Assembly (NCBI RefSeq): GCF_009914755.1 | Contig: NC_060930.1 | Source of the DNA: the human T2T-CHM13v2.0 reference genome, Homo sapiens | Reading direction: 5' to 3' (one strand) | DNA: 64,000 nucleotides | Part shown: one piece after another, positions 46,267-51,074 of the stretch | Layout of the letters: each line of letters starts with the position of its first letter | Position numbering within the stretch: the first letter of the stretch is position 1 | The notes under the pieces: model-generated | What the model was told of the DNA's origin: nothing | Database searches by the model: none | Seen by the model: only the letters and a program-made list of their open reading frames with translations | Program-made: the position numbers and the translations under genes

Positions 46267-46416
46267 TCCACATAATCCCTACAAATAATCCGGTGAAGGA
46301 ACGCCAGAGCGTGGAAAGTGGAGGACTACTGACAAAGGATGCTTGAGTACGTTTTCACTTCAAGCTCTACCTGTAAGTAGGGCGCTCAGAGAATTCCAGG
46401 GTAACCTCGGGAAAGT

Positions 46417-48060
46417 ATGGGTCAGGCTAAGAGTAAGTTTGCTAATTACTTAAGCCTGGTGCGGCCGTTATTGCGCTGCGGAGGGGTAATTGTGAGTACC
46501 CAATATCTCACATCTTTGTTCCATCTGGTAGAAAAGTATTCTCCTTGGTTCCCGGAATATGGAACCATGAATGTAAAAGATTGGGACAAGGTCGGATCAG
46601 ACTTAAAACCAGCACAACAAGAGGGCCACGATATTCCCTTCTCCTTTTGGTCTGTGTGGTCGGCAATTAAAACAGCACTGGAGCCCTTCCACACTGAGGA
46701 GGAGGAGGAGGAGTTTCAGGATGACATAGATAAGTTTAATAATCAGGAGTCCGATGATCAGCAAAGTGAACCATCACAGTCTAGTTTTAAAAAGGGGGAG
46801 AAATGGGAAGGTATATATGCTAACTTCCAGAAACTTATGAAAAAACAGTTCCACCTACTGCAGAAACAGTGCCACCTACTATGCCTTTAGGGGAAGGTCC
46901 AGAATGGCCACCCCCGCCTCGGCTTTATGAATTTTTGAAACAGGGAGCCTGAGGAAGGGAGGCTTGCTGCTCCCAAGGTTGCACGCCTCGCTGTTAACTA
47001 TGGCGAAGGGAAGCTTCAGGCTTGCCCAACAGCCAATTACGGTGAGGGAATGATCCCGGCTTGTCCACCTGTTAATTATGGTAGAGGAATGCTGCAAGCC
47101 GGCCCAAATACAAATTATGGCACAGGGAAAATCCAGGCAGCCATTCACCAGGCACGAGAAATAGGGGATTTGGATGCTTGGCAGTTTCCAGTAATTATTT
47201 CTTCGGCTGAGGAGCCCGGAGAACATGCTCAAGCACGCTGGGAGCCATTTCCTTTTAAAATATTAAGACTTAAAGTAAGCCATTGGAAAATATGGGCCAA
47301 ATTCTCCTTATGTTCATTCCTTGTTACAATCTGTGGCTTATAACCGGCGTTTAAAACCTCTGGATTGGGAGTCATTAGCCCGATCCACCCTGTACCCCTC
47401 TGAATTTCTCCAACTTAAAACCTGGTGGATGGATGAAGCAACAAATCAGGCACGCAGAAATGTTCAAGCCCAACCTCCTGTTAATAGCACATCTGATCAA
47501 TTGCTTGGAATCGGACAGGCATGGGGTACTCTCAATCAACAGATGGTAGTGGGTGATGAAGCTGTTGATCAGCTCAGAACTATATGCCTAAGAGCCTGGG
47601 AAAAAAAATTTACGACTCTGGTACTACTTATCCTTCTTTTAACTCAGTTCAACAGGGTCCAAGGAAGCCTTATCTAGATTTTACCGCCTGTTTGCAAGAC
47701 GCGGCTCAAAAGTCTATTTCGGATTTTCATGCCAGGAAAGTGATTGTTCAGCTGCTTCCTTATGAAAATGCTAATACAGAATGTCAGGCAGCAATTAGAC
47801 CTATTAAGGGAAAGGCAGATCTAAATGAGGAAAAATCTTAAGTGAATACATTAAAGCCTGCGATGACATTGGGGGGCATTTAGATAAGGCCAGCCTCCTT
47901 GCTCAGGCAATGGTTGGACTAAACGTAACAAAAAGCACATGAATGTTCCCTGGATCTTGCTATAATTGTGGACAGATAGGACATACAAAAAGAGAGTGTA
48001 CAAAGAGCCAAAAAAGGCAAAACTCGGGACTGGGCCCCTATACAAAGCGGGGCATTCCCA
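46417..48060 (+). pseudogene. gag: HERV-K gag, frameshifted, second zinc knuckle absent
   Basis: MGQAKSK (myristoylation Gly); PWFPEYGT..DW (matrix); QGPRKPYLDF (MHR); YENANTECQ; CYNCGQIGHTKREC; split over several ORFs. Confidence 0.93.
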
Positions 48061-48667
48061 ATTCAGGACTAGATGTCCCCGACTCCAAAGGGAGTGTTCC
48101 CAGCCCAGTGTATCCCTGTACAAATGTACAGCAATTGTCCCCCTCCATAGCTAAAAGTAGGGCAGTAGATTTATGCTGTACCGAAGCCATATCCCTCCTT
48201 CTTGGGGAGCCTCCTAGGAAGGTCCCAACGGGAGTTTACAGTCCATTGCCAAACGGCACGGTGGGACTTACAATGGGAAGGTCCAGCTTAAACTTAAAGG
48301 GAATTCAAGTACATACTGGAGTACTGGACTTTGATTGCCAGGGATAAATTCAAATTGTTATCTCCTCCACTGTTCCCTGGAGTGCTAATCCAGGTGACAG
48401 AATAGCTCAACTGTTGCTTTTACCATATGTTAAGTTAGGAGAAAACTCAGAAAAAAGAACAGGAGGATTTGGAAGCACAAATTCAGCAGGCAAAGCTGCC
48501 TATTGGGTAAATCAAGTCTCTGACAATAGACCTATTTGTATGGTCACTATTCAAGGAAAACAATTTGAGGGTCTGGTTGACACAGGAACAGATGTGTCAA
48601 TCATAGCTCTTTATCAGTGGCCAAAAAACTGGCCCCCAAAAAAGGCCCCAGTGGGTCTTATTGGGGT
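48030..48667 (+). pseudogene. pro: HERV-K pro: dUTPase plus N-terminal half of protease
   Basis: AVDL, GRSS, GVLDFD, DRIAQL, RTGGFGST motifs, then GLVDTGTDVSII; one in-frame TAA at 48345-47; truncated after GLIGV. Confidence 0.93.
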
Positions 48668-48832
48668 CGAGGGTTTGCTTGTATCTCACCAGGAGAGAAT
48701 CAGCTTTCTATCTGGGTACCCACAAGACATCTTAAGCTGTGCCATGAGCCAGAGTCCAAGGAAGAGGAGAAGATCTCGGAACGTCCCTGCACCCCCAGTT
48801 CATCAGATGGCTCAGATGAACACCTCTGTTGA
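48662..48832 (+). pseudogene. pol: pol remnant: integrase C-terminus only
   Basis: WGRGFACISPGENQLSIWVPTRHLK matches the HERV-K integrase tail; no RT or RNase H sequence is present. Confidence 0.9.
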
Positions 48833-51074
48833 GCAGATGGAAACCAGTAAAACTCACCAAGCAACTCAACCGACCTGTGGGCAGATGAAGAGACTAGCTC
48901 ACATTGCAGAGGAGAACGTGAGGTCTCAGAACAAGCCGCTGACTACCAGTAATCTAATGGTAGCTATGATGGCAGCAGTCTCCTTGGTAGTGAGTCTCCC
49001 CATAGCTGAGGCAGATCAAAATTACACTTATTGGGCCTACATTCCATTCCCACCACTGATTAGGCCTGTTACATGGTTATACCCTCCAGTGGAGGTTTAT
49101 GTTAATGATAGTGGCTGGATGCCTGGACCAAAAGATAACCGAAGTCCTACTCATCCACAGGAGGAAGGAATGTTAATAAATGTTTCCATTGGTTATTGCT
49201 TTCCTCCCATCTGCCTGGGGCCAGCAGCAGGATGTTTAAATTATGATAAACAAAGTTGGATGGTTTATGTCCCTGCACATAATGTATCAAAAGCCTCTAT
49301 TCATGTAATCAGTGGAACAACATTTCAATCTTTGGACACTATTAAATGCCTTAAGCATGGTTATGTTACGACACATTGCCAGATTAATAAATTTAAACCT
49401 AATAAGAAGCCCTGCCCTAGGCAGGCCACTAAATGGTCTGAAAAGCTAGAGGTGCTAACCTGGGAAGATTGTATTGCAAACAGCGCTGCTGTACTGCAAA
49501 ATAATTCCTATGGAATCATCATTGATTGGACCCCTAGGGGACACTATGCAGTAAATTGTACTGGACAGAGTGAAGATTGTAGAGACTTCTTTTGCAAATG
49601 ACTACCCAGATAACGCACCAAAATTATATAGAAGAATTAAAACAAATTACCCTATTAAGTGGGAGGAGAACGGTATGGCTCCTCCAAGCCCAGAAATGAT
49701 TGATCCAATTATAAGTCCAAAACATCATCCAGAATTGTGGAAATTAATGATGACTGGAACCCCAATTCGGATTTGGAAAGGAGAATATAAAACAGAGACC
49801 CAGGCCAGGCACGGTGACTCACGCCTGTAATCCCAGCACTTTGGGAGGCCGAAGCGGGCAGATCACGAGGTCAGGAGATCGAGACCACCCTGGCTAACAG
49901 GGTGAAACCCCATCTTTACCAAAAATGCAAAAAATTATCCGGGCATGGTGGTGGGCACCTGCATTCCCAGCTACTTGGGAGGCTGAGGCAGGAGAATGGC
50001 ATGAACCCGGGAGGCGGAGCTTGCAGTGAGCTGAGATGACACTACTGCACTCCAGCCTGGGTGACAGTGAGAGACTCTGTCTCAAAAAAAAACCAAACAA
50101 ACAAACAAACAAACAAAAAAAACAGAAACCAGAGACTCATAGTAAAAAACTTCTATTTGTTGTAGCCGTGACCTCTAATTGGACAGTCCCATTGCAGAGT
50201 TCTGTTAAACCTCCTTTTATGTTGGCAGTGGGAAAAATTAATATCCTACTTAACTCTCAAACCATATCGTGCCTCAACTGTCATCTTTTTACCTGCGTTA
50301 ATTCTACCTTTAATAAAGATAACAGCATTTTACTGGTTAGGGCCCGAGTGGGAGTTTGAATACCTGTTTCCCTCAATAGACATTGGGAGGCTCTCCCGCC
50401 ATACATATCATCACTGAAGTACTAAAAGGAACACTTAATAGATCAAAGAGATTCATATTTACTTTAATAGCTGTGATCATGGGCCTTATAGCTGTCACAG
50501 CTAGTGCTGCTGCTGCTGGTGTTGCTTTGCACTCTTGTATTCAAACTGCGGGCTTTTTGGATAGTTGGCAGAAAAATTATTCTAAGCTTTGGAAATCCCA
50601 AAGCCAAATAGATCAAAAACTGGAAAATCAAATTAATGATCTCCGTCAAACAGTAATTTGGATGGGAGATCAGATTATGAGCTTGGAGCATAGAATTCAA
50701 ATGATATGTGATTGGAATACTTCTGATTTTTGTATTACTCCTATCTCTTATGATGTCACTGAACACCACTGGGAGAAAATTAGACATCACCTACAAGGAA
50801 AAGAAGATAATTTAACACTAGATATTGCTAAACTGAAAAAACAACTTTTTGAAGCATCTCAGGCTCATCTCACCCTGTTACCTGGAGCTGATATTCTTGC
50901 TGGAGCCACTGATGGTCTTCCTAATACCAATCCTTTAAAGTGGATTAAAACCGTAGGTGGATCATCCTATTGCAAATTTTATTTTGGTTTGTGTCTGTTT
51001 ATGCTGTTTGTTCTTAGTCTACAGATGTGGATGGCTCCTTGGGAGAGAAGCCAGACACCGTGAACGAGCCATGA
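48744..51074 (+). CDS. rec: Predicted spliced Rec-like protein, 100 aa (exons 48744-48989 and 51018-51074)
   Basis: Exon 1 is 82 codons ending at GTA|GTGAGT; acceptor ctgtttgttcttAG; exon 2 encodes [18 protein letters not shown], equal in length and position to HML-2 Rec exon 2. Expression unknown. Confidence 0.6.
49803..50125 (+). mobile_element. AluY inserted in env
   Basis: ggagaatggcatgaacccgggaggcggagcttgcag; TSD aaaacagagaccca / aaaccagagactca. Confidence 0.95.

What the first reader, a model, noticed from the sequence alone, without database searches (positions are those of the whole stretch)
46373..51074. Apparently intact doubly spliced Rec-like gene in an otherwise dead non-HML-2 (HML-9-like) HERV-K provirus
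Seen: (a) a donor-like GTAAGT at 46373, upstream of gag; (b) an acceptor gcttgtatctcaccAG (48691-92) surviving ~25 nt downstream of the pol deletion; (c) gccATG at 48744 opening an 82-codon exon [18 protein letters not shown]...[13 protein letters not shown]...AAVSLV that ends in phase 0 at GTA|GTGAGT (48990); (d) an acceptor ctgtttgttcttAG (51016-17) followed by [21 protein letters not shown]. Established: HML-2 Rec (105 aa, Rev-like RNA export adaptor) is made the same way, from the Env leader (Arg-rich NLS/RNA-binding motif, WAQLKKLTQLA NES) spliced to an 18-aa exon SAGVPNSSEETATIENGP at the homologous ttag|tct acceptor. Every env-destroying lesion here (frameshifts, stop, AluY) falls inside the predicted intron. 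Inference: this locus could still encode a 100-aa Rec-like nuclear shuttling protein. Caveats: Trp->Cys at the NES start, weak exonic context at the first donor (CCT|GT), possible loss of the native branch point, and 100 codons can stay open by chance. I cannot check whether an HML-9 Rec has already been described.
Basis: partly seen in the sequence, partly recalled or inferred. Interest (0 to 1): 0.8.

Follow-up and report, generated by a model that had tools for sequence, protein, structure and literature searches.

The report
Chance-preserved Rec-like gene in HML-9 provirus
An old, defective human endogenous retrovirus on chromosome 6 still carries an unbroken copy of its family's small Rec-type RNA-export gene, but the evidence points to a leftover that survived by chance, not a working human gene.

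Summary
One coordinate is off by one: the second AG is at 51023-24. The element (window 45665-51714) is the published HML-9 (HERVK14C/LTR14C) provirus 6p12.3, which lacks pol. Its Env leader matches Pfam HERV-K_REC above the cut-off. The donor at 48990, the acceptor at 51017 and the 18-codon second exon are positionally homologous to those of an HML-2 copy from this genome. The splice architecture is therefore real for the family.

Intactness at this locus looks like chance:
- 2 of 17 human HML-9 copies keep all seven features (this one and 15q21.1).
- pN/pS against 16 paralogues is 1.02 for exon 1, versus 1.01 for dead SU.
- The estimated neutral survival chance is about 0.02-0.18 per copy.
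- The leader donor's exonic context here differs from all 17 other alignable copies.
- The family is repressed by KAP1/H3K9me3.
- No gene or named orthologous model exists for this locus.

I found no paper describing an HML-9 Rec. Verdict: a new member of a known kind, of modest interest.

The parts
45660..45664 (+). Target-site duplication CATAT, 5' copy. The 3' copy is at 51715-51719.
   Evidence: flank sequences.
45665..46246 (+). 5' LTR (LTR14C type). AATAAA is at 46088.
   Evidence: It is 90.1% identical to the 3' LTR (526 of 584 ungapped columns).
46249..46266 (+). Primer-binding site of tRNA-Lys type, diverged.
   Evidence: The Lys assignment rests on established knowledge of HERV-K.
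46373..46378 (+). Leader splice donor (SD1), GTAAGT in the context CCT|GT.
   Evidence: GT is kept in 16 of 17 other alignable copies, and all 17 have G at -1 where the window has T. The bonobo model P0028 has its junction here.
46411..48661 (+). Broken gag (p10, p24, zinc knuckle), dUTPase, and the N-terminal half of the protease.
   Evidence: Pfam hits and frames.
48661..48662 (+). Junction of the large deletion that removes the rest of pro and nearly all of pol. At least seven other copies share it.
   Evidence: pol 6.13% retained (Jia 2022).
48691..48692 (+). env/rec splice acceptor (SA1).
   Evidence: AG is kept in 16 of 17 copies. P0018 and P0028 align from exactly 48693.
48744..48989 (+). 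Rec-like coding exon 1, which is the Env leader: 82 codons with an Arg-rich motif (aa 6-12) and a Leu-rich motif KRLAHIA (aa 49-55).
   Evidence: PF15695 scores 32 bits against a cut-off of 27.5.
48960..48965 (+). Alternative phase-0 donor position (ATG|GTAGCT). It corresponds to the junction in the macaque model.
   Evidence: P0003 ends its middle exon at ...TTSNLM.
48990..48995 (+). Second donor (SD2), GTGAGT, positionally homologous to the HML-2 rec donor.
   Evidence: P0018's middle exon ends at 48989.
48990..51017 (+). Predicted intron. It is the remainder of env SU/TM and holds all the Env frameshifts and stops plus a sense-strand Alu (about 49803-50125).
   Evidence: The Alu is private to this copy: exon spacing is 2190 here versus 1854 in the C15 copy.
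51016..51017 (+). Second acceptor (SA2), TTAG|TCT. A tandem AG sits at 51023-24, as in HML-2.
   Evidence: AG is kept in 13 of 16 copies.
51018..51074 (+). Rec-like coding exon 2: 18 codons plus TGA, in the +1 frame of the Env cytoplasmic tail.
51130..51714 (+). 3' LTR, preceded by the polypurine tract at 51116-51129. AATAAA is at 51552.

Best explanation
This is the relic of the rec-type accessory gene of the extinct HML-9 (HERVK14C) betaretrovirus. It sits in the known 6p12.3 provirus, which lacks pol and is roughly 27 My old.

How it worked in the virus (inferred by homology to HML-2 Rec and MMTV Rem):
- Transcripts from the 5' LTR were spliced from the leader donor to the acceptor just upstream of the env ATG, giving env mRNA.
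- A second splice ran from a donor inside the signal-peptide hydrophobic region to an acceptor in the TM cytoplasmic-tail region, read in the +1 frame.
- The product was a roughly 100-aa protein with an Arg-rich nuclear-localisation/RNA-binding motif and a Leu-rich export signal. It carried unspliced viral RNA out of the nucleus.

In this human copy, all coding and splice elements escaped disruption by chance while the rest of env decayed. The locus is most likely silent or very weakly expressed, and it has no host function.

Shown: homology, positional identity of the splice sites, use of those sites in other primates' gene models, and neutral divergence. Inferred: export function, the response element, and silence of this locus.
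For: Identity of the element:
- Jia 2022 Table 1 lists HML-9 6p12.3, + strand, 6051 bp, pol 6.13% retained. The window element is 6050 bp, with 90.1% identical LTRs and a CATAT duplication.

Homology to Rec:
- PF15695 HERV-K_REC, E=1.3e-7, 32 bits against a cut-off of 27.5.
- 29 of 81 aligned residues are identical to the Rec exon 1 of an HML-2 copy of this genome, and the Arg-rich and Leu-rich motifs align.
- HML-2 has the same TTAG|TCT.CAG acceptor, 18 codons, and a stop in CCATGAT.

Family conservation (17 copies):
- SD2 GT[GA]AGT in 16 of 17.
- SA1 AG in 16 of 17.
- SA2 AG in 13 of 16.
- SD1 GT in 13 of 14.

Distant HERV-K copies:
- 8 of 9 keep the acceptor plus an 18-codon exon 2.
- 7 of 10 alignable copies keep the donor hexamer.

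Splice use in other primates:
- P0018, "ERVK-8 Rec protein-like isoform X2" of Pongo pygmaeus, aligns end to end with window 48693-48989 (84 of 99 identical) and then continues [17 protein letters not shown]....
- The bonobo model P0028 joins the leader to the 48693 equivalent.
- The macaque model P0003 uses both acceptors.

Neutrality and chance:
- Pooled pN/pS is 1.02 for exon 1 and 1.01 for SU.
- All seven features are intact in 2 of 17 copies.
- Analytic survival chance is 0.02-0.18 per copy.

Silencing and annotation:
- HERVK14C is repressed by KAP1/H3K9me3 in embryonic and adult cells.
- No gene is annotated in the window (hub note).
Against: - No expression data for this locus could be examined, so silence is inferred.
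- The evidence type behind the RefSeq models (RNA-seq or homology) was not visible.
- pN/pS among paralogues mixes changes from before and after integration, the comparisons are not independent, and orthologues could not be compared.
- The ORF, a good start context (GCCATGA) and four canonical splice dinucleotides are all present. A second intact copy also exists, so protein output after derepression is not excluded.
- The 3' LTR RNA folds somewhat better than shuffles (z=-2.45; 3 of 100 shuffles fold at least as well). This is compatible with a structured response element.
Confidence: 0.8

Rival explanations
1. The locus is a residually active or exapted gene. When LTR14C is derepressed (early embryo, germ line, tumours, loss of KAP1), it yields a doubly spliced mRNA and a 100-aa (or 90- or 94-aa) Rec-like shuttling protein that acts on host factors or on other HERV-K RNAs.
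For: - All elements are intact.
- The motifs aligned to the HML-2 NLS (aa 13-20) and NES (aa 54-60) are largely preserved.
- The same splice sites appear in primate gene models.
- HERVK14C is reactivated on KAP1 or SETDB1 depletion.
Against: - pN/pS is about 1.
- Survival is within chance, and a paralogue is equally intact.
- The leader donor has lost the -1 G that all 17 other alignable copies carry, and SD2 has A at -1 where 12 of 15 others have G.
- Only 30 nt of native sequence remain upstream of SA1.
- Three short upstream ORFs lie in the leader.
- No annotated gene and no named orthologous model exist (hub note).
Confidence: 0.07
2. HML-9 never had a Rec. The leader is only a long Env signal peptide, and the donor, acceptor and 18-codon frame are by-products of Env coding constraints (Val-Ser codons, T-rich membrane-helix codons, Met-Ile giving the TGA).
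For: - Exon 1 is in the Env frame, so its conservation cannot be separated from Env's.
- The exon 2 stop is fixed by Env's ATG-A.
- By eye, from the translations, the Env frame of the overlap is more conserved between HML-9 and HML-2 (11 of 19) than the Rec frame (6 of 18).
Against: - The orangutan and macaque models actually join these exons.
- The Ser after the donor is encoded by AGT in 7 of 10 alignable distant copies.
- The architecture is identical to the experimentally established HML-2 rec (passages).
Confidence: 0.08
3. If the locus is transcribed, the main product is not Rec-like. It is the singly spliced env mRNA encoding a 285-codon truncated SU, whose long signal peptide would be released, as with HML-2 SP or MMTV p14.
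For: - The Env frame is open for 285 codons from the same ATG.
- The bonobo model P0028 is of this singly spliced type.
- HML-2 Env yields a stable nucleolar SP that lacks export activity.
Against: As with the Rec-like product, there is no evidence that this locus is transcribed at all. A premature stop far upstream of the last junction or 3' end may destabilise the RNA (inference).
Confidence: 0.05

Closest known systems
HERV-K(HML-2) Rec (cORF), 105 aa
   Same: - Exon 1 is the Env leader, with a Pfam HERV-K_REC hit.
- The Arg-rich and Leu-rich motifs sit at aligned positions.
- The donor lies in the hydrophobic region.
- The acceptor is TTAG|TCT with a tandem CAG.
- Exon 2 has 18 codons in the +1 frame of the TM tail and ends at the same TGA.
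   Different: - Only 29 of 81 exon-1 residues and 6 of 18 exon-2 residues are identical.
- Exon 1 is 82 codons, not 87.
- Cys replaces the Trp four residues before the NES as defined in Ruggieri 2009 (aa 54-60), so the change lies outside that motif. The 15q21.1 copy shares it.
- No function has been tested, and the response element is unknown.
RefSeq model 'endogenous retrovirus group K member 8 Rec protein-like isoform X2' (Pongo pygmaeus), P0018
   Same: It comes from an HML-9-type provirus. Its exon borders fall exactly at the 48693, 48989 and 51018 equivalents, with 84 of 99 residues identical over the middle exon.
   Different: - It is a different locus. It lies on a roughly 231-Mb contig, and its exon-2 tail has lost the stop, like the human C1:246.5M copy.
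- Its CDS starts at an ATG in the leader that the window lacks.
- Its leader exon appears to end about 28 nt further downstream (inference from the peptide).
'Env Rec domain' of HML-10 type II proviruses (Grandi 2017, PMC5667498)
   Same: It is a Rec-homologous Env leader outside HML-2, with some open ORFs and a recognisable NES. The same loci appear among my distant hits and keep the 18-codon exon 2.
   Different: That paper describes only the leader domain and reports no NLS. It gives no doubly spliced structure. The group is also different.
MMTV Rem / signal peptide p14, and SERV-K/MER11 sRec
   Same: These are Rev-like or Rec-derived products made from the betaretroviral Env leader by double splicing (abstracts; passages).
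   Different: Rem is a much longer protein that is cleaved to release SP (recalled). sRec has a 62-aa second exon derived from HML-8 and showed no export activity.

Membership tests
Rec (Pfam PF15695 HERV-K_REC; betaretroviral Env-leader export factor) | Sequence homology of exon 1 to HML-2 Rec, above the curated cut-off | tested here: met
   32 bits against 27.5, E=1.3e-7. BLASTP E=5e-11 against an HML-2 copy of this genome.
Rec (Pfam PF15695 HERV-K_REC; betaretroviral Env-leader export factor) | N-terminal arginine-rich NLS/RNA-binding motif (HML-2 aa 13-20) | tested here: met
   window KRRRSRN aligns with HML-2 RRRRHRN, 5 of 7 identical. The motif position comes from Ruggieri 2009. Function was not tested.
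Rec (Pfam PF15695 HERV-K_REC; betaretroviral Env-leader export factor) | Leucine-rich NES (HML-2 aa 54-60) | tested here: inconclusive
   KRLAHIA against KKLTQLA, 4 of 7 identical, with the hydrophobic positions kept as L and I. Activity is unknown.
Rec (Pfam PF15695 HERV-K_REC; betaretroviral Env-leader export factor) | Doubly spliced mRNA: leader donor to env acceptor, then signal-peptide donor to an acceptor in the TM tail, read in another frame | tested here: inconclusive
   All four sites are present and positionally homologous. They are used in primate gene models of other HML-9 copies. Use at this locus was not testable.
Rec (Pfam PF15695 HERV-K_REC; betaretroviral Env-leader export factor) | CRM1-dependent shuttling, and export of unspliced RNA through a structured element in the 3' LTR | not testable with these tools
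   The only indication is weak: the 3' LTR fold has z=-2.45. There is no Rfam family in the region.
HERV-K(HML-9) / HERVK14C-LTR14C | Listed as an HML-9 provirus; similarity to other HML-9 loci | tested here: met
   6p12.3 is listed with the same strand, length and pol deficit; the closest paralogues (87-93% identical) lie on the chromosomes and at about the positions of that paper's other HML-9 loci. No Dfam or RepeatMasker run was possible.

The most novel reading that the evidence does not exclude
The two human HML-9 loci that keep the complete Rec-like gene (6p12.3 and 15q21.1) produce a Rec-like nucleo-cytoplasmic shuttling protein when KAP1/H3K9me3 repression lifts (pre-implantation embryo, germ-cell tumours). 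That would make Rec-type proteins in humans not exclusive to HML-2. The protein might act on host partners or on other HERV-K RNAs.
Probability: 0.06. Interest if true: 0.6.

Novelty: new member of a known kind. Interest (0 to 1): 0.3.

Why it matters
Rec is usually treated as an HML-2 speciality. Here the full doubly spliced rec architecture turns out to be shared by HML-9, and its second exon by HML-10-type copies. Primate annotation pipelines already emit such models. Together these point to a Rec-type export factor that is ancestral to several HERV-K groups.

For studies of HERV-K proteins in cancer or embryos, there are two more human loci whose products could be confused with HML-2 Rec or add to it. 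For this particular locus, the practical message is caution: an open 100-codon frame in a 27-My-old provirus is expected by chance.

Tried and rejected
- Flockerzi 2005, the original HERV-K14C paper, is not held. It may already discuss variants or a cORF-like frame.
- The bacterial-type promoter/terminator scan of the 5' LTR is irrelevant to a eukaryotic LTR and was disregarded.
- Rfam found no family in 45500-51900.
- Pfam found nothing in 5 of 5 minus-strand ORFs of 80-127 aa, nor in two further plus-strand frames. Nothing points to an antisense gene.
Other HML groups were therefore judged only from loci already held.
- Orthology of P0018 to a particular human copy could not be settled by tblastn. 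The best middle-exon match is the C19 copy at 90%, while the exon-2 tail resembles the C1:246.5M copy.
- No MaxEnt or SpliceAI scoring was available, so splice strength was judged only against the other copies.
- A first guess of the alternative acceptor offset was wrong by one base. Its printed tail is not used.
- A dN/dS test of the exon-2 overlap was not run. The region is 54 nt long and Env constrains it.
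Full report
**Observation.**
- GTAAGT lies at 46373 in the context CCT|GT.
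- An AG lies at 48691-92.
- gccATG opens at 48744, followed by 82 open codons that end in phase 0 at GTA|GTGAGT (48990).
- An AG lies at 51016-17, followed by [18 protein letters not shown] and a TGA ending at 51074.

There are two small corrections. The tandem downstream AG is at 51023-24, and an exon starting at 51025 would add [12 protein letters not shown]. The pol deletion ends at 48661/62, 30 nt before the first acceptor.

**What the element is.** Direct repeats of about 582-585 nt at 45665-46246 and 51130-51714 are 90.1% identical (526 of 584 ungapped columns) and are flanked by a CATAT duplication. Between them lie the following:
- A Lys-type primer-binding site.
- Broken gag (p10, p24, zinc knuckle), dUTPase and half a protease.
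- A deletion of the rest of pro and nearly all of pol.
- An env with a HERV-K_REC leader, HERV-K_env_2 SU and GP41-type TM.

The plus-strand element is 6050 bp. This matches the HML-9 provirus [quoted passage not shown] in Jia et al. 2022 (PMC9178832; passages and table rows seen). The minus strand holds no recognisable gene: 0 of 5 ORFs had a Pfam hit. No Rfam family is present.

**Homology to Rec.**
- The 82-aa exon 1 matches Pfam PF15695 above its cut-off (32 bits against 27.5, E=1.3e-7).
- I cut an HML-2 provirus out of the same genome. Its leader aligns with the window's at 29 of 81 residues (BLASTP E=5e-11).
- Window KRRRSRN lies opposite HML-2 RRRRHRN, and KRLAHIA lies opposite KKLTQLA. 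These are the NLS (aa 13-20) and NES (aa 54-60) as placed by Ruggieri et al. 2009 (PMC2649029; passages).
The 15q21.1 copy shares it.
- HML-2 has its donor at the same place (GTG|GTAAGT), the same TTAG|TCT.CAG acceptor arrangement, an 18-codon second exon and a stop in the same CCATGAT.

**Census in the human genome.** Three searches of the window's own assembly gave 17 HML-9 proviruses that have the exon-1 region, at 87-93% identity. Per copy:

| Feature | Copies that keep it |
|---|---|
| Leader donor GT | 13 of 14 that have the leader |
| SA1 AG | 16 of 17 |
| ATG | 10 of 17 |
| Exon 1 of 246 nt without stops | 6 of 17 (3 of 17 also have the ATG) |
| SD2 GT[GA]AGT | 16 of 17 |
| SA2 AG | 13 of 16 |
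| Exon 2 of 18 codons with stop in place | 9 of 16 |
| All seven features | 2 of 17 (the window and C15:43.04M, which is 15q21.1) |

- In the one copy that lacks SD2 GT[GA]AGT, a 3-nt deletion leaves GTGTGT.
- The C4 copy has an intact exon 1 but lacks the 3' part of env.
- More distant HERV-K copies include the loci that Grandi et al. 2017 call HML-10 type II. Of these, 8 of 9 keep TTTAG|TCT plus 18 codons and the stop. The donor hexamer is kept in 7 of 10 alignable copies (13 loci were examined, and 3 do not cover the site).
- PF15695 itself hits 143 places in the genome, so a Rec-like leader is a general HERV-K trait.

**Independent support for the splice sites.** A protein search with exon 1 and a follow-up search found three named gene models.
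- *P0018*, [quoted passage not shown], 162 aa. Its residues 26-124 align end to end with the translation of window 48693-48989 (84 of 99 identical). Before that comes a leader peptide matching window 46328-46369 (11 of 14). After it comes [17 protein letters not shown]....
- *P0028* (Pan paniscus, named an Env polyprotein) joins ...STFSLQALQ to ERISF..., which is the 46372^48693 junction, and stays unspliced at SD2.
- *P0003* (Macaca fascicularis, uncharacterised) joins a pol fragment to the same first acceptor. It then leaves the leader 30 nt earlier, where the window reads ATG|GTAGCT at 48960 in phase 0, and enters STDADGALGEKPDTMNEP.

I could not see what evidence these models rest on. The macaque model uses a donor different from the HML-2 one, which argues against pure protein-homology modelling (inference).

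**Is the intactness meaningful?** Several results say it is not.
- Exon 1 lies inside the longest open stretch of the provirus: 417 codons stop to stop, and 285 codons from the ATG.
- Pairwise pN/pS between the window and 16 paralogues pools to 1.02 for exon 1 and 1.01 for the adjoining SU region, which is dead. These comparisons are descriptive and not independent of one another.
- I assumed about 5% change per copy since integration, and an indel-to-substitution ratio taken from the LTR alignment (58 mismatches, 10 gap columns). On those assumptions, the chance that no stop or indel arises and that the ATG, four splice dinucleotides and the stop survive is 0.02-0.18, with a central value of about 0.08. 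That predicts about one intact copy among 16-17, and two are seen.

**Prospects for expression here.** Most indications are unfavourable.
- The exonic context of the leader donor differs from every other copy. All 17 other alignable copies have G at -1, while the window has T.
- SD2 has A at -1, where 12 of 15 others have G.
- Only 30 nt of native sequence precede SA1. At least seven other copies on chromosomes 1, 19 and Y share the same deletion, so the deleted form itself spread.
- A private sense-strand Alu sits in the intron.
- Three short upstream ORFs precede the main ATG.
- HERVK14C is repressed by KAP1/SETDB1/H3K9me3 in NTERA-2, HeLa and 293T cells and in PBMC, and it is reactivated when they are depleted (Tie et al. 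2018, PMC6172469; passages).
- No gene is annotated in the window. A search with the 285-aa Env-frame ORF found no named model of this locus. The only 100% hit is the window's own ORF.
- The 3' LTR RNA folds moderately better than shuffles (z=-2.45; 3 of 100 shuffles fold at least as well). This is weak and unspecific.

**Novelty.** I found no description of an HML-9 Rec in six searches.
- The human HML-9 paper mentions Rec only for HML-2.
- The chimpanzee HML-9 paper has no whole-word "Rec".
- Grandi et al. 2017 (PMC5667498; passages) reported an "Env Rec domain" in HML-10 type II and stated that Rec had been thought exclusive to HML-2.
- Williams et al. 2024 (PMC11379458; passages) describe the HML-2 rec splice form and a chimeric sRec.
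- Flockerzi et al. 2005 could not be read.
- RefSeq already carries an automatically named Rec-like model for an orangutan HML-9 copy.

The finding is therefore a new member of a known kind. The family-level inference is sound: HML-9 had a rec gene with the HML-2 architecture. The locus-level claim of a surviving functional gene is unsupported.

**Mechanism and rivals.**
- *Most likely (0.8):* a chance-preserved relic of the viral rec gene with no host role.
- *Residual or exapted expression of a Rec-like protein:* about 0.07.
- *By-product of Env constraints, with no Rec ever present:* about 0.08. The spliced primate models weaken this reading.
- *If transcribed, mainly a truncated Env plus signal peptide:* about 0.05.

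The decisive data are junction-spanning reads at this locus and the state of the orthologous loci in other catarrhines. Neither was available here.

Noticed in passing
window 48348-49601; junction at 48661/62: The pro-pol deletion fuses the truncated protease in frame to the env leader, giving a 417-codon open frame (353 aa from its first ATG, P0031). At least seven other copies on chromosomes 1, 19 and Y share the same deletion junction. The deleted form was therefore itself propagated or duplicated.
   Followed up: partly
L002/L035/L064 (G000 C15:43.04M, 15q21.1): A near full-length HML-9 provirus also keeps all seven Rec-like features (ATG, 82 + 18 codons, four splice sites). It shares the Cys at the position where most copies have Trp. 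This is the copy that Tie et al. 2018 showed to be KAP1-bound.
   Followed up: partly
window 46401-46406: A second GT (AGG|GTAACC) lies 28 nt downstream of the leader donor. The orangutan Rec-like model appears to end its leader exon at this position (inferred from its peptide GRSENSR).
   Followed up: no
window 49803-50125: A sense-strand Alu with an A-rich tail and a short flanking direct repeat interrupts env SU. It is absent from the other copies (exon spacing 2190 versus about 1854). The subfamily was not determined.
   Followed up: partly
P0004, P0005, P0001 (unnamed database ORFs): These ORFs are 90-97% identical to the window's leader. P0004 is 97% identical over 77 aa. They may be orthologues or variants of this locus. 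P0004 and P0005 start at the residue equivalent to Met22, which may mean the upstream part is not open there. Their sources are unnamed and were not traced.
   Followed up: no
G000 chromosome Y (C24), loci L007, L010, L012-L015, L021, L022, L038, L042, L043: Many HML-9 copies sit on the Y chromosome, several in near-identical pairs in opposite orientation. This is consistent with ampliconic duplication, not independent integrations.
   Followed up: no
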